Below are positions 1 to 8,465 of a stretch of DNA of 8,465 nucleotides, one piece after another; position 1 is the first letter of the stretch, and the number at the start of each line of letters is the position of its first letter. The notes below the pieces were generated by a model. It was not told the DNA's origin and ran no database searches. It saw only the letters and a list, made by a program, of their open reading frames with translations. Both the position numbers and the translations under genes were made by a program. Source of the DNA: a virus (taxonomy: Duplodnaviria; Heunggongvirae; Uroviricota; Caudoviricetes); the IMG/VR virus record IMGVR_UViG_3300014749_000013, positions 1-8,465 of that record; one strand, given 5' to 3'.

Positions 1-456
1 CTGGCACGCCGTGTCCTTGTCCCCCCGCCAGTAATACCGCCATTCCGGCGCATTCACCGCGTCAGTACAGGCAGATGAGCAGGTGAACGTGCTTTTGTCG
101 TATCGCGTGATGGTAGCGTCTGGTCTGCCCAGGGCAGCAAGCTGTGCAAGGTAAAAATCCTCATTGATGCCGCCCGCCAGGTTAACCTTCGCATCCAGTC
201 GTTGCTGACGCTGGCGAAGGGTCTGTGTCCCTGCGGGAATACATTCATCCGGCAGACCGCACAGACGCTCCCAGCGGTTTATCAGTTCAGTGGTGGTGCG
301 CGGATCCAGCTCCCGCATCAGGGCATCCGCACGCTGATGAACGCGGGTTAATGACGGTGCCGCACCGGCAATCGCCGGATCTCTGGCTGACCACGCCGGA
401 CCGGGTGGCAACAGTGCCGACAACAGACGGATGTAATCATCGTTTGTCACGTCCAT
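1..456 (-). CDS. Mu gp48-like tail/baseplate protein (P2 gpI / DUF2313-type); N-terminal 152 codons only, C-terminus lies beyond the window start
   Basis: Reverse-complementing 1..456 by hand gives ATG at 456..454 followed by 152 sense codons with no stop down to position 1 ([124 protein letters not shown]...). The start overlaps the baseplate J stop (ATGGACGTGA). Position immediately after baseplate J matches the Mu gp47-gp48 order. Missing from the ORF track because it has no in-window stop. Family assignment rests on position and N-terminal motif recall, not a search. Confidence 0.55.
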
Positions 457-1503
457 GAAATCGTCCCCAGTACCGCCAGTTCATTTTTTGCAATGGAGAT
501 ATTGTCCGCCGGTGCAAGCAACTGATGGCTGTATTCCCCGTTCGCACCGGAAATCGCTTCACTGATACGTGACACCTTCAGTTCTCCCTGCGGATAACCA
601 TCACGCAGCAGGAACGAACGCAACTCCGCGGTAATGGCAGCCCGTATTTCTGGTGTGTCCGGCGTCACGCGGATATGAAAATCCACCGTATGTGCCACCG
701 GCCTGAATACATACAAATCAGAGCCTGCCACCGGGGCCAGTGGCCCGATATGTTGTCTTGCTGCCGTTTCCGTTGATTCTTCCGGAATGGGATTAATCAG
801 GTCACTGCTGGCAATCATCACACCGACAGTTCCCGTTCCCATCCAGTGGCGGTATGTCCATGCACGGGTAATGCCTGGCACTTCTTTAGCCCAGACGACA
901 TAGTCCCCGTCAGCCCCGCCCTGAGGCGTCCAGTAATACCGCTCAATGACGCGGGCGCGCCACGTTTCCAGCTCTTCAGTATCAAATCCGCCTGTCAGGG
1001 TGTCAGCCACACCGGAAGACGGCAGACCATTCACCGGCGTGACCAGGATTAATGCCGTACCGTCGTCAGCGTTACCGACCGCGCCTGTAGTTGAGCAAGT
1101 GATCGGCACACGCAGGACACCACCGGAGCTGGTTGCATCGGCAGTTGCCGTGTACTGAACCAGGTCATCGCGCTGAATCACGCTCCCGGCAGTCACCTTC
1201 AGGCCATCTCTGACACCTTCCCAGCGCATATACCCGCTGGCAGCCGTGGCCCCCTTGCGCGGACACCGTTTCATCGCAGCATGTCGCGCCAGCCAGGACT
1301 CATCGCACAGGTCAGGCAGCATATTCATTGCCAGATAATCGATGTACCCGTAAACCGTATGCAGCGCCGCCGCATACACCTTTGCCCGCACGTCTTCNNN
1401 NNNNNNNNNNNNNNNNNNNNNNNNNNNNNNNNNNGAATAAATCGTTACGGAGCATACTGATATTTTCTGCCAGCGTCGGGCGCTGAAATTCACTGTCCGC
1501 CAT
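447..1503 (-). CDS. Baseplate J-like protein (Mu gp47-like), interrupted by a 37-N gap that breaks the reading frame
   Basis: The 357-aa ORF 447..1520 reads as a baseplate J family protein after the gap ([23 protein letters not shown]... to ...AVLGTISWT, stop TGA at 447..449). The likely true start is ATG 1503..1501 ([23 protein letters not shown]), in a different frame upstream of the N-run and overlapping the gp46-like stop by 14 nt. The two frames cannot be joined across 37 N, so the real gap length is not 37. Confidence 0.75.
1398..1434. other. Run of 37 N (assembly gap or masked bases) inside the baseplate J-like gene
   Basis: Directly visible as n characters at 1398..1434. Confidence 0.97.
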
Positions 1504-1918
1504 GCGTTATCGCACTCCACAGATCATCAAAAGAAATCATTACCGGTCCGTCACGACGCCAGAGAGTGATACTGTTACCCAGTTCATTAATCCCGGTGCG
1601 GCGGATATCCAGATCAATACGGGACACCACGCCGTCATCAATCATCCATTGCAGGCATTCGCGGATATATCCCCTTACCGTCTGCACCAGTTGATTGGTC
1701 AGTTTGCTGCGCTGAAGCAGCCACAGTCGGGAGCCGTAACGGTCATTCTGTACCGCAGGCCAGGTATCCCCCCACCATCCCATCGGGACGTCGGCGTTGT
1801 CATCAGGCTCCGCCCGCCGCCAGGTAAACAGGGAAATCACCACGGCGCGGGTCAGCGGATCCAGCGGTGCGCTGGCGCAGGTGCGTTTACCGTTCACCGT
1901 CAGCCACAGTTCCATCAT
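1490..1918 (-). CDS. Mu gp46-like baseplate protein (GP46 family; gpW / T4 gp25-like wedge)
   Basis: 142-aa ORF with ATG at 1918..1916 overlapping the upstream gene's TGA (ATGA). Size and position between the gpV-like and baseplate J-like genes match Mu gp46. Confidence 0.7.
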   Translation of the reverse strand: MMELWLTVNGKRTCASAPLDPLTRAVVISLFTWRRAEPDDNADVPMGWWGDTWPAVQNDRYGSRLWLLQRSKLTNQLVQTVRGYIRECLQWMIDDGVVSRIDLDIRRTGINELGNSITLWRRDGPVMISFDDLWSAITHGGQ

Positions 1919-2463: not shown

Positions 2464-3542
2464 CAGAACGGGTCCTCCTGTACTCTGGCTTTTTTCTTTT
2501 TCCGCGCGCCGGGATCTTCGGGTTCAGGCAGATAAGCATCAGGCGGGCCGACACGGATTTCCGTCAGGGTGCCGTTCTGGTCCTGAGTAAACGTGACTTC
2601 CGAGACAAGCAGTTCGGTATTGTCGAAACCACAGACCGGATCGAAGACAATCACCCGCTGGTTGGGCTGCCACAGCGTACCGTTACCCTGTCGCCAGCCC
2701 TGCACCACATAGGTGGTTTCATCCGTCCGCGCCGCCCGTTGCCGGGCTTCAAAGTCAGCACGCGCAATACAGCCTGCCCCCGTAGCCTGCCCTGTCTGCC
2801 TGATATACATCGGACGGTAACGGGCAATAAATGCGTCCTCTGTGCGGGCCCGCAGCGCGGTGGTGGTGGCCTCACCGAAATCATCGTCGTTTCCGGCACG
2901 CTGCCCCGCCACCTGGTAAACAGAAAACCGCTCCCGGATACTCTTCTCCGTATCACAGGAAAGGATGTTTTCCCCAAGTACCAGCGCGGTATGTGCCCGC
3001 GTTGAGCCAACACCGCCAATCACCAGCCTGCCGTGCGGGTCGTCATAAGCCAGCGCCTGCTGCTGACCGAGTATTTTGTTGATTACCTCAATCACCGTTT
3101 CACCGTGATCAGGCTGGACATCAGGAATAACACCCGACGGCGCACCGCTGTTCACCACCTCAATGCCGAAAGGCGCAGCAAGCGCCTGCGCAATCTGTAC
3201 CAGCGATCGTCCGTTAAACTGTGTCGGTTCGGCTGCACAGTCAATCAGGTCAGCGGTCAGACTGCGTCCGGCAATACCGGTGCTGACCGAACGGGCATCG
3301 TAACGAACGGGCGTCGCCTCCACCCAGCCGGTGATCACCAGCTCATCACCAATCAGCACCTCCACTTTTGAACCGTTTTTAATGCGCGGCTGAAGCGTGG
3401 TGATACCCTCATCTCCCGGCCACTGGCGGGTGATCTCCACACTGAAATCCCGCGCCAGTCGTTCAACACCGGCACCGATGCGCACCGATGTCCAGCCATT
3501 CCACTCCCGGCCATTTACCCGTAGCGTGACGTTATCGTTCAT
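2463..3542 (-). CDS. Mu P (gp44)-like tail protein; P2 gpD-like baseplate hub
   Basis: 359-aa ORF with ATG at 3542..3540 overlapping the N-like stop (ATGA). Size and position match Mu gp44. C-terminus carries a lysine-rich tail (ARKKKKARVQEDPF). Confidence 0.8.
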   Translation of the reverse strand: MNDNVTLRVNGREWNGWTSVRIGAGVERLARDFSVEITRQWPGDEGITTLQPRIKNGSKVEVLIGDELVITGWVEATPVRYDARSVSTGIAGRSLTADLIDCAAEPTQFNGRSLVQIAQALAAPFGIEVVNSGAPSGVIPDVQPDHGETVIEVINKILGQQQALAYDDPHGRLVIGGVGSTRAHTALVLGENILSCDTEKSIRERFSVYQVAGQRAGNDDDFGEATTTALRARTEDAFIARYRPMYIRQTGQATGAGCIARADFEARQRAARTDETTYVVQGWRQGNGTLWQPNQRVIVFDPVCGFDNTELLVSEVTFTQDQNGTLTEIRVGPPDAYLPEPEDPGARKKKKARVQEDPF

Positions 3543-4915
3543 TGCACTGGCACCTTCAGAGGGATCACCGGCACAAAGCCGGGATGCGTAATGGCATTAC
3601 GCCGGATAATGTCCGCGTCACGCGCCGCGTTATCAAACCAGGTCGCCGCCAGCACCAGCGCGGGTAAAACCTCATCCGGCGTGCGCTGAATGATCCGTGC
3701 AGACTGTTCAAGGCGCGTGTTGATATCCGCATTCAGATCTGCTTTCACCCGGCGCAGCGCCAGAAACAGCGCATCACTGGTTGTACGGGACAACTCCTTA
3801 TCAATTGCCGTATTCAGTGTGTCGCGAATGTCAGTCAGTTCTTCCCACGTCGGCAGATCAACCGTGTTTTTCACCGCCGGTGCATTGTTCAGTGCCGGAT
3901 GCGTAACGGAAGGCCAGCCGGTGCTCTGCGCAGCTGTTGTTGCCTGCCCCACTGCGGCATTCTGCATCACCGCGGAAGTTGTTGGCGCAGGCAATCGGGT
4001 GACGGCATACGCCGCTTCGCTGATTGCGGTCGTACGAAGGGTGCTGGCAACCACGTTACGCTGCTGTGTCGCCGTGGCGGTGGTTTTACTGTCCGTTTTC
4101 CAGACGCCGCGCGGTTGCAGATCGCTGCCAAGGCTGACACCGGAAAGCGTTTTGATCATGGTGGCCAGGTCGCTGGCGTTACCATAAAGGCGTTTCCCGG
4201 TACGCCACATTTTCTGCACCTGCTCAACGAAATTTTTGCCTGACGATGGCGGCGGCAGAAGTACCGAGATATCCCCCTGCAACAGCCTGGCGGCATCCGA
4301 TACGGCAGAATCCACCACTTTCATCGCATCAGAAACATACCCCAGCATTATGCTGGCATTACCGATAACGTCGTTCTGCACGAAATCCGCCACACCATCG
4401 ATACTGAAACCGCTGAAGCTGTCACTGATGCAGTCATCCAGTGCAGAACAGGATGACATCAGCGTCTGCGCCGTCGCCGCACCTGATGTGGGGTAAGAGA
4501 GTTCTCCTGCTTCGACAAACTTCAGGTCAAAGCGGACAATACGCCCTTCACTTTTCGATGTGCTGACCCGAACTTCCCCGTCAACACAGACTTTCAGCTC
4601 ACCATATGTCGGGTGGACAAGCGTGCCGGGACCGGGTTTATTCAGCGCTTCAATCAGGCGATCGCGCTGGTCAAAGCAGTCATCTCCCACCACATAAGCT
4701 GTGATGGACGGGCGGAAAGTGACTTTTCCCAGATCTTCGGTATAGGGCTTGTCGCGGTTCGGGTATTCATGTGTTTCCACACGGCGACCGGTTCCCGCAC
4801 TTTCTTCTTCAACCTTAAACGGCACACCTCGAAATGACGCATCCTGAAGTCTGTCACGCCAGCCTGAAGACGACGAAAGTAATGAAGGTCGGGTGGGAAA
4901 TGAGGATAAATCCAT
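3539..4915 (-). CDS. Mu N (gp43)-like DNA circulation protein
   Basis: 458-aa ORF with ATG at 4915..4913, 24 nt downstream of the tape measure stop, with GAGGT upstream. The N-terminal region (LQDASFRGVPFKVEEESAGTGRRVETHEYPNRDKPYTEDLGKV...GTLVHPTYGELKV) resembles the DNA circulation N-terminal domain of Mu N. Confidence 0.8.
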   Translation of the reverse strand: MDLSSFPTRPSLLSSSSGWRDRLQDASFRGVPFKVEEESAGTGRRVETHEYPNRDKPYTEDLGKVTFRPSITAYVVGDDCFDQRDRLIEALNKPGPGTLVHPTYGELKVCVDGEVRVSTSKSEGRIVRFDLKFVEAGELSYPTSGAATAQTLMSSCSALDDCISDSFSGFSIDGVADFVQNDVIGNASIMLGYVSDAMKVVDSAVSDAARLLQGDISVLLPPPSSGKNFVEQVQKMWRTGKRLYGNASDLATMIKTLSGVSLGSDLQPRGVWKTDSKTTATATQQRNVVASTLRTTAISEAAYAVTRLPAPTTSAVMQNAAVGQATTAAQSTGWPSVTHPALNNAPAVKNTVDLPTWEELTDIRDTLNTAIDKELSRTTSDALFLALRRVKADLNADINTRLEQSARIIQRTPDEVLPALVLAATWFDNAARDADIIRRNAITHPGFVPVIPLKVPVQ

Positions 4916-4939: not shown

Positions 4940-6874
4940 TTATCGTGGAAAACGAAAAGGGGAATACCCCACATCGTGCGTGATTTTCATCAGGGGATCG
5001 GCTTTGCCCGGTACATCAATTATCTTCATACCTGGCGGAGCATTCTCGAACGTGACTTTCAGCTCGCTGTGCTGTGTCATGGAAGAAGATGGATTCAACA
5101 GCGGAACATTGGGTTTGTACTGACTCAGGCTGGCCTGATACTGCTCGTACTCTTTACGATCAAAAAAAGGCGTCCAGTCTGAAGCCAGAAACAGCCCTTT
5201 ATTATCCAGCCAGTTAACCGTATCTTCAGGAACAACACTTTCCAGAGTATCTTTAACCGGCTCATACATCAGGGTTCCCAGAAAACCATATACCCCGGCC
5301 TTCCCGATAAAGCCGCGGCCTTTCCCCATCAATCCCGTTTCTGCCGATACCTTCCCCAGCGTACGCATCTCTCTGGTCACTGCGGTAATGGATTTGGTAA
5401 CGTCAGCAACCCATTTGGTTGCCATAAACAGGGCAATCGCTTTCAGAACAGTTTCCCATCCCCCCATCGCCTGCGCCGTTTCATCCACCACGTGCCAGAC
5501 TTTTTTTATGACAGGACCTACGGTTTCCCAGTTATCAATAATGAGGTAAGCGCCACCAACCAGAAGAGCAATCAGCCCCTTAGCAGGCGTCATATTCATC
5601 ACACCGCCGAGAACTTTCATAATTCTGGACAAAGAGCCTGCAGCGGCTCCCACCGTCAGTAAGGCCAGACCGATTTTAGCAATGGTCTTAACGAGCTCCG
5701 GGTTTTCACGGACAAACGTTCTCACTTCCTCAAGGAGCGGTTTTACCGCTTCAAGACCATCATTAACCTCAGGAAGAAACGTTTCCCCCAGCGTGGAAGA
5801 AATGGCATCAAGTTGATTTTGCAGAAGTAAAAGCTGGTTTTCCGTCGTCGCTGCCCTCGAAGCATATTCCTTCTGCATCGAACTGCCATACTGCTGGGAA
5901 TCCGCAACCCGCCTGAAGTTGGTACGCAACAAATCAAGGTTAGTCAGCAGAGGTGCTATCGCGCCCAGAGACTCTTTCCCGAACAGGGCATTCAGCACAG
6001 CTGCCTGTTTTTCTTTGGGCACTTTAGCCATCGCATCCAGTACAGACAGCATGGTTCCCCGGGCATCTTTCTGCATATCAGCAGCTAATTTCTTCGGATT
6101 GATCCGCAGAAAACGTAATGCCTGTTTCTGCGATTTTGTCGCGGAATTTCCCGCGGTCAGGGAAAGCATGAAGTTCTTGATCCCTGTGGCGGCAATTTCT
6201 GACTCCACGCCCATCCCGGCAATGGTTGCCCCCATTGCCGCGATTTCGCCGGAAGCCACACCTGCAACACCACCTAAAGGACCAATACGCGTAACAATAT
6301 CGGAGATTTTCTTCGCATTCGCCGGGCCGGTATTACCAAGGTAGTTGATTTTGTCAGCCAGCCCGGCCACTTCATCCTGCGTCATATTAAACGCAGTACG
6401 CCACTGGGCCATCATCTGCCCGGACTCTTCAGCCGTGGTATCAAAGGCCACGCCCATCTTCACCGCATCAGTGGCAAACTGCATCAGTTCATCACGTGCA
6501 ATCCCGGCCTGACCGCCACCCCGGCCACCCCGGCCCTGCCCCCCGCCCGCCACAATTTCCGCGATCCCGTCTGCAGACATGGGAAGCTCAGTAGACAAAG
6601 CGCGTACCTGCTCCGTCATGGCCTTAAACGCATCCGGCGTATCCAGACCGTCTACCACTTTGCGGACATCAGCCATCTTCGATTCAAGGGTGATGGCTGA
6701 TTTTACAGGGAGTGCCAGTGCCCCCATTATTGCAGTACCCGCCCCGGCAGCGCCCAGAGCAAGGCTGGAGACTTCTTTCTGAAACCCCTTAAGCTGACGC
6801 TGCATACCTTTAAGCGGGCCGGACAGCCTGTCAACGGCGGTGATGATGGCTTTCAGCTGAAAATTATCAGCCAT
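4940..6874 (-). CDS. Tail tape measure protein
   Basis: 644-aa ORF, the longest in the window, lying between the chaperone and the baseplate genes. ATG at 6874..6872 is preceded by GAGGAG at a 7-nt spacing. Mostly Ala/Gly/Leu-rich with a glycine-rich GGGQGRGGRGGGQAG segment and a hydrophobic stretch (IGLALLTVGAAAGSL...LIALLVGGAYLII), typical of tape measure proteins. Confidence 0.9.
   Translation of the reverse strand: MADNFQLKAIITAVDRLSGPLKGMQRQLKGFQKEVSSLALGAAGAGTAIMGALALPVKSAITLESKMADVRKVVDGLDTPDAFKAMTEQVRALSTELPMSADGIAEIVAGGGQGRGGRGGGQAGIARDELMQFATDAVKMGVAFDTTAEESGQMMAQWRTAFNMTQDEVAGLADKINYLGNTGPANAKKISDIVTRIGPLGGVAGVASGEIAAMGATIAGMGVESEIAATGIKNFMLSLTAGNSATKSQKQALRFLRINPKKLAADMQKDARGTMLSVLDAMAKVPKEKQAAVLNALFGKESLGAIAPLLTNLDLLRTNFRRVADSQQYGSSMQKEYASRAATTENQLLLLQNQLDAISSTLGETFLPEVNDGLEAVKPLLEEVRTFVRENPELVKTIAKIGLALLTVGAAAGSLSRIMKVLGGVMNMTPAKGLIALLVGGAYLIIDNWETVGPVIKKVWHVVDETAQAMGGWETVLKAIALFMATKWVADVTKSITAVTREMRTLGKVSAETGLMGKGRGFIGKAGVYGFLGTLMYEPVKDTLESVVPEDTVNWLDNKGLFLASDWTPFFDRKEYEQYQASLSQYKPNVPLLNPSSSMTQHSELKVTFENAPPGMKIIDVPGKADPLMKITHDVGYSPFRFPR
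6516..6551. repeat. Short imperfect 9-bp tandem repeat (CCACCCCGG x2, then CCCTGCCCC, CCGCCCGCC) inside the tape measure gene
   Basis: Visible on the plus strand at 6516..6551; on the minus strand it encodes the glycine-rich segment GGGQGRGGRGGGQAG. Confidence 0.5.
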
Positions 6875-7282
6875 GCTTCATCTCCTCATTTATACGGACG
6901 GCCTCTGCCTCCAGATCAGCAAAGTGGGAAATAGCCGTCCGGCGAAGTTCAAGGGGGTTTAATTTCCAGAACCACGCGACATTGTAGAATCGCTTCCGGA
7001 GGTCTCTTCCGTCTCCAAGCCGGTAAAAAAACGCATTACAATCATGCCTGCCTTGAAAATATCCAGCTTCGTCATCTGCGCTGCAGACGAGCGCGGGATC
7101 CCGGCCAGAAGCGGGATATATTTCAGCGCTACCTGACTGTCCATTTTCATACCACCATCAGGTGAAACAGAGAAAGGGAACCCCAGCGCCTCAATCTCGT
7201 CATACGTAGGCTCACGTATTTCCAGCACATGCAGTGTTTCTTTGTGGGCGATGATCGGTTTTTTAAGTACAAGCTCAATCAC
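6867..7282 (-). CDS. Predicted -1 frameshift product of the tail assembly chaperone (lambda GT / P2 E+E' analogue), about 138 aa
   Basis: After codon 86, the -1 frame stays open for 52 codons (YRLGDGRDLRKRFYNVAWFWKLNPLELRRTAISHFADLEAEAVRINEEMKHG) and ends at TGA 6869..6867, which overlaps codons 2-3 of the tape measure gene. This fills the 84-nt non-coding gap between the 0-frame stop and the tape measure start. Confidence 0.55.
6882..6887 (-). promoter_or_regulatory. Shine-Dalgarno sequence (GAGGAG) for the tape measure gene
   Basis: GAGGAG on the minus strand, 7 nt upstream of ATG 6874..6872; it lies inside the predicted frameshift extension. Confidence 0.5.
6959..7282 (-). CDS. Tail assembly chaperone, 0-frame product (Mu gp41-like; lambda G / P2 E analogue)
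   Basis: 107-aa acidic ORF between the tube and tape measure genes. Start is GTG at 7282..7280 overlapping the tube stop (GTGA), with AAGGGG upstream; no in-frame ATG is available. Stop TAA at 6961..6959. Confidence 0.7.
   Translation of the reverse strand: MIELVLKKPIIAHKETLHVLEIREPTYDEIEALGFPFSVSPDGGMKMDSQVALKYIPLLAGIPRSSAAQMTKLDIFKAGMIVMRFFTGLETEETSGSDSTMSRGSGN
7025..7031 (-). other. Candidate -1 ribosomal frameshift slippery heptamer T_TTT_TTT
   Basis: Minus-strand sequence ATG CGT TTT TTT ACC (plus-strand A7 at 7025..7031) fits the X_XXY_YYZ pattern in the chaperone 0 frame, at codons 84-86 of 107. Confidence 0.55.
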
Positions 7283-7635
7283 TGGTAATCCCCTTCTTCA
7301 CCGTGGAACTCAAGATCAACCGTGCCTTCTTCGGCATTATGGTTCGCTTCGCCGTGCAGCCAGGCAGACGACAGTACATAGACCTGACCGTTCGCCAGCT
7401 CGGCAGTGATGGTCATCTCATCAGACGAGGTGATTTTGCTCACCGGAAAATTCTTCGGCACCTTGAAGGTCCCTTTGACATAGGGCGCACGGTGAGTTTC
7501 CTTGCGGTCCACTGAACCGTCCAGGCCGATGATGTCATCATTGACCGTCCTGTTCATGGGCACCTCAATGCCGCCGGTCAGCGATAGCTGCTGACCGTCA
7601 ATTTTGAAATAACAGGTTCCCCCAATACGGGCCAT
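7279..7635 (-). CDS. Tail tube protein (Mu M-like)
   Basis: 118-aa ORF immediately downstream of the sheath, with ATG at 7635..7633 overlapping the sheath TAA by 1 nt (TAATG). Size and position match a contractile-tail tube protein. Confidence 0.8.
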   Translation of the reverse strand: MARIGGTCYFKIDGQQLSLTGGIEVPMNRTVNDDIIGLDGSVDRKETHRAPYVKGTFKVPKNFPVSKITSSDEMTITAELANGQVYVLSSAWLHGEANHNAEEGTVDLEFHGEEGDYQ

Positions 7636-8465
7636 TATGCAGACTCCTCTGAATACTGAAGACGGAACTGGTTAACCACGGCAAAGACACGCAACTGGTT
7701 AACATAGTCAGGCGGGAACAGCGTGTTCAGGCGGTTCGGATCGCTGGCATCACGCTCCACAACCAGGTACTGCTTAAACAGTTCGTAGTTTTCCACGATC
7801 CCCGCACGCTCAAGCTGACGGTAGGTTGCCAGCAGTTCCCCTTTGATCACCGCCGGGGTGACAATCGCCTGACCGGGACCAAAGCGGGTACCGTCACTGG
7901 CAAGCTTGTGACGCCCGTACTTACTGGTAATGACGGATTTCAGTTTGCGCAGTACATACGCGCTGGTATGCAGTGTCTCACTGTCGAGGTAGCTGTTATC
8001 CGCAACCCCGTAAGCGTTTTTCCTGTACGTGGTGACATCACGCTGAATGCGCAGTACCCCGCTTTCGACATACGCCGTTGCCACGCCATGAGACAGCAGG
8101 GTCTGTTGTTCGGTCATCGTGAACCGTTTCCCCTTCGGCGCAGGCAGCATACCCACCATCTCACCGGTCTGCGTGGGACGTGCCGGATCGTTGCGGATAA
8201 ACACCGCTGCGCGGGCGGTACGGCTGGCTGCCAGCTCGTCGGCAGGCGTCTGGGTCTCTTTTTCGTACCCCGCCAGGGTGATGTGCTGCTGATTAAACTG
8301 GTCACCTGCGGTCACCAGTTCTGACAGCGTGCCGATCTTTGCCGTATACACATGACCATACAGCTGACGCGCATAGCTCCAGCGACCACTGGTATCGTTC
8401 ATCTCGGTCACCAGCGTGTTAACGGAGGCCGTGTCGTTGAACGGCAGGGCGAGATAAACAACAAG
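7635..8465 (-). CDS. Tail sheath protein (Mu L-like), C-terminal ~276 codons; N-terminus lies beyond the window end
   Basis: The frame is open from position 8465 to stop TAA at 7637..7635; the 18 codons 8465..8412 (LVVYLALPFNDTASVNTL) contain no stop. The track start at 8411 is an internal GTG. The C-terminal sequence (...NRLNTLFPPDYVNQLRVFAVVNQFRLQY) and position upstream of the tube gene fit a sheath protein. Confidence 0.85.
   Translation of the reverse strand, partial: LVVYLALPFNDTASVNTLVTEMNDTSGRWSYARQLYGHVYTAKIGTLSELVTAGDQFNQQHITLAGYEKETQTPADELAASRTARAAVFIRNDPARPTQTGEMVGMLPAPKGKRFTMTEQQTLLSHGVATAYVESGVLRIQRDVTTYRKNAYGVADNSYLDSETLHTSAYVLRKLKSVITSKYGRHKLASDGTRFGPGQAIVTPAVIKGELLATYRQLERAGIVENYELFKQYLVVERDASDPNRLNTLFPPDYVNQLRVFAVVNQFRLQYSEESA

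What the first reader, a model, noticed from the sequence alone, without database searches (positions are those of the whole stretch)
6867..7282. Apparent programmed -1 frameshift in the tail assembly chaperone, ending inside the tape measure start
The chaperone 0 frame contains a canonical slippery heptamer T_TTT_TTT (plus 7025..7031). A -1 slip there opens a 52-codon extension that terminates at a TGA overlapping codons 2-3 of the tape measure gene, exactly filling the 84-nt gap that otherwise looks non-coding. This matches the conserved G/GT-type recoding architecture of dsDNA phage tail chaperones. It is expected biology, not novel, but automated annotation usually misses it and it confirms the locus is a genuine tail-assembly cassette.
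Basis: partly seen in the sequence, partly recalled or inferred. Interest (0 to 1): 0.5.

Follow-up and report, generated by a model that had tools for sequence, protein, structure and literature searches.

The report
Tail chaperone -1 frameshift, P2 E/E+E' type
A small phage tail-assembly gene in this E. coli/Shigella prophage almost certainly makes a second, longer protein when ribosomes slip back one base on a run of seven U's; this trick is well known in tailed phages, but public annotation of this phage group misses it.

Summary
All genes lie on the minus strand. The 107-codon chaperone ORF (7282..6959) contains T_TTT_TTT (7031..7025) in the X_XXY_YYZ register. A -1 slip opens 52 codons that end at a TGA (6869..6867) inside codons 2-3 of the tape measure gene.

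The heptamer alone is not beyond chance. The comparative evidence is what decides it.
- In 62 of 64 distinct relatives, down to about 40% protein identity, the aligned site is NNT TTT TTY.
- The -1 extension is 50-57 codons in all 58 distinct regions analysed, and in most it stops across the tape measure start.
- The extension is under purifying selection in the -1 frame (pN/pS 0.17-0.28). The 0-frame tail is not (about 1) and varies from 3 to 26 residues.
- No independent start codon exists for the extension.

The N-terminal domain is Pfam PF10109 (P2 gpE / Mu gp41) and ends exactly at the slip site. The layout copies the annotated frameshift of P2 E/E+E' (T6G, 8-nt overlap with gene T). No conserved RNA stimulator was found.

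None of the 16 phage records, nor the one RefSeq E. coli record inspected, annotates the long form. Verdict: real, expected biology, a new member of a known kind, low novelty.

The parts
7279..7635 (-). Tail tube gene (118 aa). Its stop overlaps the chaperone start codon as GTGA.
   Evidence: PF10618 Tail_tube, E 2.4e-33. ORF listed.
6959..7282 (-). Tail assembly chaperone, 0-frame product (107 aa, GTG start). Residues 5-86 form the Phage_TAC_7 domain. Residues 87-107 are an unconserved acidic, Ser-rich tail.
   Evidence: PF10109, 32.1 bits against a cut-off of 25; the domain ends at F86. phrog_166 'tail protein', E 1.3e-25. PGAP calls the same CDS 'phage tail assembly protein'. The 0-frame tail has pN/pS 0.91 and a length of 3-26 aa in relatives.
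7025..7031 (-). Slippery heptamer T_TTT_TTT in the X_XXY_YYZ register (codons CGT TTT TTT = R84 F85 F86).
   Evidence: NNT TTT TTY is conserved in 62 of 64 distinct relatives. The preceding amino acid varies (R, G, N, S, V) but its third base is always T. The first Phe codon is TTT in 57 of 57, although TTC makes up 60% of Phe codons elsewhere in these genes.
6867..7025 (-). -1 frame extension: 52 codons (YRLGDG...EEMKHG) plus TGA. It is the E'/T-like C-terminal segment of the 138-aa frameshift product.
   Evidence: Motif conserved across relatives. pN/pS is 0.25 in the -1 frame against 1.13 and 1.66 in the other two frames, and 0.17 in the stretch beyond the 0-frame stop. phrog_32181, E 4.5e-6. 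No ATG/GTG/TTG start gives 20 aa or more in this frame.
6867..6869 (-). TGA stop of the extension, formed by the third base of tape measure codon 2 and the first two bases of codon 3 (ATG GCT GAT).
   Evidence: The same overlap ((A/G)TGGCTGA or ATGGCTAA) occurs in most relatives. P2 has ATGAGTAA at the E+E'/T junction.
6882..6887 (-). Shine-Dalgarno sequence GAGGAG of the tape measure gene, embedded in the last codons (N-E-E) of the extension.
   Evidence: Sequence read. Function inferred from position, 7 nt upstream of the ATG.
4940..6874 (-). Tape measure protein gene (644 aa), the presumed binding partner of the chaperone.
   Evidence: PF10145 PhageMin_Tail, E 1.1e-38.

Best explanation
This is the tail assembly chaperone gene of an SfIV-like temperate myophage: a Mu-like tail module in an E. 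coli/Shigella prophage. It is decoded in two ways.

Most ribosomes read the 0 frame and make a 107-aa protein, the counterpart of lambda gpG and P2 gpE. A minority undergo tandem -1 slippage on U_UUU_UUU. The P-site and A-site tRNA-Phe re-pair from UUU UUU to the overlapping UUU UUU one base back. Those ribosomes continue for 52 codons and make a 138-aa protein, the counterpart of gpGT and E+E'. That protein terminates 8 nt inside the tape measure gene.

By analogy with lambda, the shared N-terminal domain would coat the tape measure protein, and the extension would recruit the tube protein so that the tube polymerises around the tape measure.

Shown here: the sequence architecture, its conservation, and protein-level selection on the -1 frame. 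Inferred: that slippage actually occurs, that it is ribosomal, its efficiency, and the assembly role of the two products.
For: 1. Geometry: the heptamer is in register, the -1 ORF has 52 codons, and its stop overlaps the tape measure start.

2. Conservation: 126 related loci give 64 distinct sequences. 62 of them have NNT TTT TT(T/C) at the aligned site. The two exceptions (L094, L102) keep the T7 but carry an indel and come from insect-symbiont genomes.

3. Codon choice at the site is constrained at the nucleotide level. The third base of the preceding codon is T across five different amino acids, against 24-59% T elsewhere. The first Phe codon is always TTT, against 40% elsewhere. This holds in 17 lineages below 80% identity.

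4. Shift window: a -1 frame stop lies as close as 7 codons upstream, and a 0-frame stop as close as 3 codons downstream. Across the family, the shift is therefore confined to about 10 codons around the heptamer.

5. Selection, measured on gap-free alignments: pN/pS is 0.25 (window type) and 0.28 (SfV type) in the -1 frame, against 1.1-1.7 in the other frames. The N-terminal domain gives 0.18-0.25.

6. The 0-frame tail is unconstrained (pN/pS 0.91) and is 3-26 aa long.

7. No start codon allows separate expression of the extension.

8. PF10109 (P2 gpE / Mu gp41) ends at the slip site. hhalign against P2 E+E' is collinear over 119 columns, E 4.6e-5, and aligns GFF with the GFL of the P2 slip site. 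The P2 record annotates a -1 frameshift at T6G with an 8-nt overlap into T (PMC3091744).

9. U_UUU_UUU and U_UUU_UUC fall in the efficient H_HH.U_UU.Y class of -1 motifs in E. coli. UUUUUUU is strongly avoided in E. coli genes, z = -15.6 (PMC4066793).

10. Negative controls: the three other in-register T- or A-rich heptamers in the tape measure gene are not conserved at the nucleotide level in phiP27, ST64B or SfV.
Against: There is no direct evidence of the long product, because no proteomics or ribosome profiling could be run.

No conserved stimulatory element was found.
- The 97 nt from the heptamer onwards fold no better than shuffles (z = -0.33).
- RNAalifold predicts no pairs in the window-type group. 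In the SfV-type group it predicts one invariant hairpin 45 nt downstream, with no covariation.
- No Rfam family matches.
- No Shine-Dalgarno-like sequence was seen upstream. This was a check by eye on the contexts.

In the reporter assays of PMC4066793, bare UUUUUUU gave only 0.33% frameshifting and UUUUUUC 0.12%. That is well below the roughly 1:30 GT:G ratio cited for lambda (PMC5009743). Either the efficiency here is low or there is an unrecognised stimulator.

The extension does not match Pfam PF06528. The structure model was unusable, pLDDT 48.
Confidence: 0.9

Rival explanations
1. Transcriptional slippage. RNA polymerase stutters on the T7 tract and produces a subpopulation of mRNAs with one U fewer or two more. 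Standard translation of these mRNAs yields the same long product.
For: The site is a homopolymer. UUUUUUU is avoided in E. coli genes in all three phases, which PMC4066793 attributes partly to transcriptional slippage or indel mutation. Length variants of the tract occur in assemblies, for example the T5 allele P0001.
Against: Efficient slippage by bacterial RNA polymerase is described for runs of 9 A or T, matching the 9-10 bp hybrid (PMC5009743). Here the run is 7, and only 6 (TTTTTTC) in 19 of 58 distinct relatives. The third position Z is restricted to T or C, as expected for the efficient ribosomal class H_HH.U_UU.Y. The homologous P2 site T6G is annotated as a translational frameshift (PMC3091744). 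Most of the T5 alleles lie in assemblies whose neighbouring genes are also fragmented, which points to sequencing error.
Confidence: 0.05
2. No recoding takes place. The 84-nt stretch is a non-coding spacer, or a relic, conserved for tape measure translation signals. The heptamer simply encodes Phe-Phe.
For: The tape measure Shine-Dalgarno sequence GAGGAG lies within the last codons of the putative extension. No record annotates a product here. The heptamer count in the window is not above chance.
Against: Variation is concentrated at third positions of the -1 frame (diversity 0.14 / 0.08 / 0.35). pN/pS is 0.17 in the gap against 1.6-2.5 in the other frames. The frame stays open for 50-57 codons in all 58 distinct sequences. 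The peptide motif is conserved while the nucleotide sequence diverges to saturation. Synonymous choice at the heptamer is fixed.
Confidence: 0.02
3. The extension is a separate small gene that is translated from its own start codon.
For: phrog_32181 shows that some annotators have called similar small ORFs as genes.
Against: No ATG, GTG or TTG in this frame gives a product of 20 aa or more in the window. The conserved part begins immediately after the heptamer. The -1 frame upstream of the heptamer is closed at variable distances, 7-44 codons, and shows no conserved start.
Confidence: 0.02

Closest known systems
Bacteriophage P2 gpE / gpE+E' (-1 frameshift at TTTTTTG, FETUD tail operon)
   Same: - Same Pfam N-terminal domain (PF10109), ending at the slip site in both: profile position 78 of 79.
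- U6N heptamer in the same register and at the aligned position, GFL against (G/R)FF.
- Products of similar size: 91 and 142 aa in P2, 107 and 138 aa here.
- The extension stop overlaps the tape measure start by 8 nt in both.
- Located between the tube and tape measure genes of a contractile tail.
- No downstream RNA structure is reported for P2 (PMC3091744), and none was found here.
   Different: - Z is G in P2, and T or C in this family.
- The P2 extension matches PF06528 at 76 bits; this extension does not match it at all. Profile similarity of the extension alone is weak: E 0.0027, probability 11%.
- The surrounding tail and baseplate genes here are Mu-like (PF07157 DNA_circ_N and others), not P2-like.
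Lambda gpG / gpGT (G_GGA_AAG, conserved tail chaperone frameshift of Xu, Hendrix and Duda 2004)
   Same: - Same position, between the major tail gene and the tape measure gene.
[quoted passage not shown]
- Presumed role in coating the tape measure and recruiting the tube subunit (PMC5009743).
   Different: - No detectable sequence similarity was tested or claimed.
- Different heptamer.
- Lambda has a non-contractile tail.
- Lambda's ratio of about 30:1 has been measured; here it is unknown.
Phage Mu gp41 and its frameshift extension
   Same: - Same neighbourhood: sheath L, tube M, gp41, tape measure, N, P.
- gp41 is named in PF10109.
- Mu also has a 144-nt unannotated gap before its tape measure gene.
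- The peptide encoded there in the +1/-2 frame aligns weakly with this extension: E 0.0011 over 27 columns.
   Different: - Mu is reported to shift by -2, not -1 (PMC5009743, PMC2628397).
- Mu has a G-run rather than a U-run near the end of gp41.
- gp41 is longer (145 aa), and the full-length profile comparison is insignificant: probability 1.6%.
E. coli dnaX and IS3/IS911-type stimulated -1 frameshifting
   Same: X_XXY_YYZ tandem slippage by E. coli-type ribosomes.
   Different: Those sites depend on an upstream Shine-Dalgarno sequence, a downstream hairpin or pseudoknot, or both. None is conserved here.

Membership tests
Conserved tail assembly chaperone frameshift (lambda G/GT type) | The gene lies between the major tail or tube gene and the tape measure gene. 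| tested here: met
   Tube (PF10618) at 7635..7279, chaperone at 7282..6959, tape measure (PF10145) at 6874..4940.
Conserved tail assembly chaperone frameshift (lambda G/GT type) | A second ORF overlaps the 3' end of the first in another frame, has no start of its own, and runs to the tape measure gene. | tested here: met
   52-codon -1 ORF ending at 6867. No start codon gives 20 aa or more.
Conserved tail assembly chaperone frameshift (lambda G/GT type) | A slippery sequence lies in the correct register inside the overlap and is conserved among relatives. | tested here: met
   T_TTT_TTT at 7031..7025. NNT TTT TTY in 62 of 64 distinct relatives.
Conserved tail assembly chaperone frameshift (lambda G/GT type) | The trans-frame segment is a real protein-coding sequence. 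| tested here: met
   pN/pS is 0.17-0.28 in the -1 frame against more than 1 in the other frames, on gap-free alignments. The motif is conserved.
Conserved tail assembly chaperone frameshift (lambda G/GT type) | Both products are made in a fixed ratio, are required for tail assembly and are absent from virions. | not testable with these tools
   Requires proteomics, Western blots and phage genetics.
Pfam PF10109 Phage_TAC_7 (P2 gpE, Mu gp41) | HMM score above the gathering cut-off. | tested here: met
   32.1 bits against 25, residues 5-86. Relatives score 26.6-65.2 bits and P2 E scores 47.8 bits.
Pfam PF06528 Phage_P2_GpE (the E' segment) | HMM match of the trans-frame extension. | tested here: not met
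   No hit at E up to 10 for the window extension or for four fused relatives. The positive control P2 E+E' scores 76.3 bits.
Pfam PF06528 Phage_P2_GpE (the E' segment) | Remote homology of the extension to P2 E' by profile comparison. | tested here: inconclusive
   hhalign of the extension alone gives E 0.0027, probability 11%, over 33 in-register columns. The full-length comparison gives E 4.6e-5, probability 69%.
Mu-type -2 tail chaperone frameshift | The extension is encoded in the +1/-2 frame. | tested here: not met
   The conserved extension is in the -1 frame. The +1 frame closes after about 26 codons.
Stimulated -1 frameshifting (dnaX / IS3 type) | A conserved downstream hairpin or pseudoknot at 5-9 nt, or an upstream Shine-Dalgarno sequence. 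| tested here: not met
   Fold z-score -0.33. RNAalifold finds 0 pairs in the window-type group, and one hairpin 45 nt away without covariation in the SfV-type group. No Rfam hit.
Programmed transcriptional slippage | A homopolymer run about as long as the RNA-DNA hybrid (9 or more A or T). | tested here: not met
   The run is 7 T here and 6 T in 19 of 58 distinct relatives. The threshold is taken from PMC5009743.

The most novel reading that the evidence does not exclude
This PF10109 lineage may reach a biologically adequate E : E+E' ratio on a bare U_UUU_UUY heptamer through a stimulator that is not an mRNA structure near the site. No conserved mRNA stimulator was found. Candidates are the conserved hydrophobic nascent peptide just upstream ((I/V)xx(G/R)FF) or coupling to tape measure initiation 150 nt downstream. 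If so, the frameshift signal would be mechanistically different from the textbook heptamer-plus-structure type.
Probability: 0.12. Interest if true: 0.4.

Novelty: new member of a known kind. Interest (0 to 1): 0.15.

Why it matters
The main value is for annotation. A functional tail protein, presumably essential, is missing from every public record of this phage group that I inspected: SfIV, phiP27, ST64B, the SfV-type phages and one RefSeq E. coli genome. The stretch matches 217 of 5426 complete E. coli genomes. The 84-nt 'gap' there is coding sequence.

The finding also confirms that the locus is an intact tail-assembly cassette. It provides a clean comparative dataset: 17 lineages, a U6Y heptamer and no detectable stimulator. 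That dataset could be used to benchmark frameshift predictors. It does not change the understanding of tail assembly or of recoding.

Tried and rejected
- **Structure prediction.** An AlphaFold2 model of the fused product, from a 24-sequence alignment, gave pLDDT 48 and pTM 0.30. It was unusable, so no fold search was run.
- **Solved structures.** A sequence search with the family profile found only chance hits, E 0.03 or worse.
- **NCBIfam.** No model matched the 0-frame product, the fused product or P2 E+E'.
- **Rfam.** Nothing in the window.
- **Downstream RNA stimulator.** None is supported. The GGAG...CUCC hairpin seen by eye in the window is not kept in relatives.
- **Literature.** Xu et al. 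2004 and Christie et al. 2002 are not held. I could not check whether SfV, ST64B or phiP27 were already listed there. No held paper contains 'SfV', 'frameshift' and 'tail assembly chaperone' together. The SfIV genome paper calls ORF-12 a hypothetical protein.
- **ST64B 'tail assembly frameshift mutation'.** The mutation cited in PMC7067206 is a prophage-inactivating defect in a tail gene (STMMW_19861-19871), not this recoding site. I did not map those tags, so this reading is inferred.
- **Fused database proteins as natural single-ORF versions.** They turned out to be indel alleles. One is a T5 deletion, mostly in error-prone assemblies. The other is a G insertion in a decaying S. flexneri prophage next to IS1.
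- **Pooled pN/pS over all 47 extensions.** This analysis was saturated and guided by the alignment frame. It was replaced by gap-free within-group comparisons.
Full report
**Setting.** All genes in the window run on the minus strand and form a Mu-like contractile-tail module:
- sheath C-terminus, 8411..7635 (PF04984/PF17482)
- tube, 7635..7279 (PF10618)
- a 107-codon ORF, 7282..6959
- an 84-nt gap
- tape measure, 6874..4940 (PF10145)
- a Mu N-like protein, 4915..3539 (PF07157), followed by ORFs that by gene order correspond to Mu's baseplate genes (only PF07157 was checked)

The stretch 6700..7700 is 99.9% identical to Escherichia phage vB_EcoM-720R4 and 99.0% to Shigella phage SfIV. It is 78% identical to phiP27 and 74% to ST64B. 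The stretch 6800..7300 matches 217 of 5426 complete E. coli genomes.

**The observation.**
- On the minus strand the ORF starts at GTG 7282, overlapping the tube stop as GTGA.
- Codons 84-86 are CGT TTT TTT, so the seven T's at 7031..7025 sit in the X_XXY_YYZ register.
- Resuming at 7025 in the -1 frame gives 52 codons, YRLGDGRDLRKRFYNVAWFWKLNPLELRRTAISHFADLEAEAVRINEEMKHG, then TGA at 6869..6867.
- That TGA is formed by the tape measure codons ATG GCT GAT.
- The fused product has 138 residues.

Every coordinate in the finding is right.

**Is it more than chance?** The motif alone is not. TTTTTTT occurs three times in the window against 1.0 expected, and 25 of 200 shuffles reach that count. The nine genes hold 11 in-register heptamers. 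Two of these are in-register homopolymers inside the tape measure gene: A7 at 5507..5501 and T7 at 5168..5162. Their -1 frames close after 6 and 0 codons. These served as controls.

**Comparative evidence.**
- I collected 8 annotated phage loci, 80 IMG/VR loci and 37 loci from GTDB species genomes. With the window this makes 126 sequences, 64 of them distinct in this region.
- At the codons aligned to R84-F85-F86, 62 of 64 read NNT TTT TT(T/C).
- The preceding residue varies (R, G, N, S, V), but its codon always ends in T. Elsewhere in these genes, codons for these residues end in T 24-59% of the time.
- The first Phe codon is TTT in 57 of 57, although TTC is the majority Phe codon elsewhere (171 TTC against 113 TTT).
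- The second Phe codon is free to be TTT or TTC.
- This pattern holds in 17 lineages that are less than 80% identical.
- The -1 extension is 50-57 codons in all 58 distinct regions analysed. In most it ends in a stop built from the first codons of the tape measure gene, (A/G)TGGCTGA or ATGGCTAA.
- The two exceptions, L094 (Arsenophonus endosymbiont) and L102 (a Pantoea symbiont MAG), still have the T7 tract but carry an indel nearby. They look like pseudogenes or assembly errors.
- The three T- or A-rich control heptamers in the tape measure gene are not kept at the nucleotide level in phiP27, ST64B or SfV, even where the amino acids are kept.

**Coding signal.** Within the window-type group (9 sequences) and the SfV-type group (11 sequences) the extension aligns without gaps, so no frame is favoured by the alignment.

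| Region and group | -1 frame | 0 frame | +1 frame |
|---|---|---|---|
| Whole extension, window type | 0.25 | 1.13 | 1.66 |
| Stretch beyond the 0-frame stop, window type | 0.17 | 1.62 | 2.51 |
| Part overlapping the 0-frame tail, window type | 0.34 | 0.91 | 1.31 |
| Whole extension, SfV type | 0.28 | 1.21 | 1.15 |

Values are pN/pS.
- The N-terminal domain gives 0.18-0.25.
- Nucleotide diversity by -1 codon position is 0.14, 0.08 and 0.35.
- The 0-frame tail ranges from 3 residues (LQA* in SfV) to 26.
- The peptide motif (Y/F)(N/D)xAxxW(R/K)(I/L)NP...(E/Q)AxRI(N/E) is conserved across groups that share only about 40% identity and whose tape measure proteins are 24% identical.

**Where the shift must happen.** A -1 frame stop lies as close as 7 codons upstream of the first extension codon (L111). 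A 0-frame stop lies as close as 3 codons downstream (SfV type). If all relatives shift at the same place, it must be within about 10 codons that contain the heptamer. There is no ATG, GTG or TTG that would give 20 residues or more in the -1 frame in the window. Separate initiation is therefore excluded.

**What it is like.** Residues 5-86 match Pfam PF10109, 'Phage tail assembly chaperone proteins, E, or 41 or 14', above the gathering score. The match ends at profile position 78 of 79, exactly at F86. The same is true of four divergent relatives and of P2 gpE.

The P2 RefSeq record annotates E (91 aa) and E+E' (142 aa, -1 frameshift). In the P2 sequence the heptamer T_TTT_TTG sits in GGT TTT TTG, and E+E' ends 8 nt inside gene T as ATGAGTAA. 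PMC3091744 summarises this site and the absence of a downstream structure in P2.

A profile of 21 fused products aligns collinearly with P2 E+E' over 119 columns, E 4.6e-5, and superposes GFF on GFL. The extension alone is only weakly similar to E' (E 0.0027) and does not match PF06528, which P2 E' hits at 76 bits. It does match phrog_32181, of unknown function.

Mu is a poorer comparator. It is reported to shift by -2 (PMC5009743, PMC2628397). Its gp41 is 145 aa and ends near a G-run. The profile comparison is insignificant, apart from a weak in-register match of the +1-frame peptide.

**Mechanism.** The best reading is tandem -1 slippage of two tRNA-Phe on U_UUU_UUY. PMC4066793 places H_HH.U_UU.Y among the efficient -1 motifs in E. 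coli and shows that UUUUUUU is strongly avoided in E. coli genes (z = -15.6). Without a stimulator, its reporters gave 0.33% for U7, 0.12% for U6C and 0.12% for U6G. With the IS3 pseudoknot they gave 7.6-10% for U7 and U6C but only 0.77% for U6G.

I found no conserved stimulator. The fold z-score is -0.33. RNAalifold gives no pairs in the window-type group, and one invariant hairpin 45 nt downstream in the SfV-type group without covariation. There is no Rfam match. Efficiency is therefore unknown and may be low.

Transcriptional slippage is the main rival. It is disfavoured by the short run (7 T here, 6 T in a third of relatives), since a run of 9 is the length described for efficient slippage by bacterial RNA polymerase (PMC5009743). 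The restriction of Z to T or C also argues against it.

**Annotation status.** None of the 16 phage records that contain the extension annotates it. The one RefSeq E. coli record inspected annotates only the 107-aa 'phage tail assembly protein'. The SfIV genome paper calls ORF-12 a hypothetical protein. I could not read Xu et al. 2004 to see whether this phage group was already listed.

**Database proteins that look like single-ORF fusions.**
- P0001 (137 aa) is a T5 allele, a 2-nt deletion in the tract. Most of its contigs also have fragmented neighbouring genes, which indicates homopolymer sequencing errors.
- P0007 (142 aa, on more than 650 contigs) comes from a Shigella flexneri prophage remnant. 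A G insertion 30 nt after the T7 fuses the frames, and IS1 follows the tape measure gene. This looks like decay, not an alternative design.

**Verdict.** This is ordinary, expected phage biology that annotation pipelines miss: a new member of a known kind, of low interest.

Noticed in passing
window 6521-6547 (minus strand, tape measure codons 110-118): The tape measure protein here is 644 aa. It carries a 9-residue Gly-rich insertion (GGGQGRGGR) that is absent from the 635-aa proteins of SfIV and E. coli 2012C-4221. It may be a small repeat expansion, and could slightly lengthen the tail.
   Followed up: partly
window 7245-7254 (5' end of the chaperone gene): This is a mosaic joint. SfV, SfI, SfII and SKA5 match the tube and sheath at 96-97% nucleotide identity, but the match stops here. 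They carry a different chaperone plus tape measure module (tape measure 24% aa identity) with the same frameshift layout. The chaperone and the tape measure seem to be exchanged as one unit (also noted in PMC3851460).
   Followed up: partly
L131-L133 (Shigella flexneri chromosomes), chaperone at 3001-3429: A widespread S. flexneri prophage remnant (protein P0007, on more than 650 contigs) has a 1-nt G insertion 30 nt after the T7. Normal translation therefore makes only a fused 142-aa long form. IS1 sits directly after the tape measure gene, so the prophage is decaying.
   Followed up: yes
L134-L138, chaperone gene: Alleles with T5 instead of T7 give a single 137-aa fused ORF (P0001). In most of these assemblies the neighbouring sheath, tube or tape measure genes are also split, which suggests homopolymer sequencing errors rather than real variants.
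   Followed up: yes
window 5501-5507, 5162-5168 and 4955-4961 (minus strand, tape measure gene): Three more in-register slippery heptamers lie in the tape measure gene: A_AAA_AAA, T_TTT_TTT and C_CCT_TTT. Their -1 ORFs have 6, 0 and 33 codons. None is conserved at the nucleotide level in phiP27, ST64B or SfV, so they look incidental.
   Followed up: yes
window 1398-1434: A run of 37 N lies inside the last ORF of the module (447..1520, at the position of Mu gp47). The window therefore comes from a scaffolded or masked assembly.
   Followed up: no
L004 and other SfV-type loci, about 45 nt 3' of the heptamer: An invariant 8-bp hairpin, UGCGCCAG-CUA-CUGGCGCA, lies in the extension coding sequence (peptide CASYWR). 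It is too far from the slip site for a classical stimulator, shows no covariation, and is absent from the window type.
   Followed up: partly
window 6882-6887 (minus strand): The tape measure Shine-Dalgarno sequence GAGGAG is encoded by the N-E-E codons near the end of the extension. The last codons of the extension are therefore under double constraint, and termination of the long form occurs right at the tape measure start. Translational coupling is possible.
   Followed up: no
L127 (phage Mu) 3988-4131: The Mu RefSeq record also leaves a 144-nt unannotated gap between gp41 and the tape measure gene. The +1/-2 frame there encodes a peptide (…AIGVILKSGPEWALSLPLSRFF…) that aligns weakly with this extension. 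The reported -2 frameshift product is therefore not annotated in this record either.
   Followed up: partly
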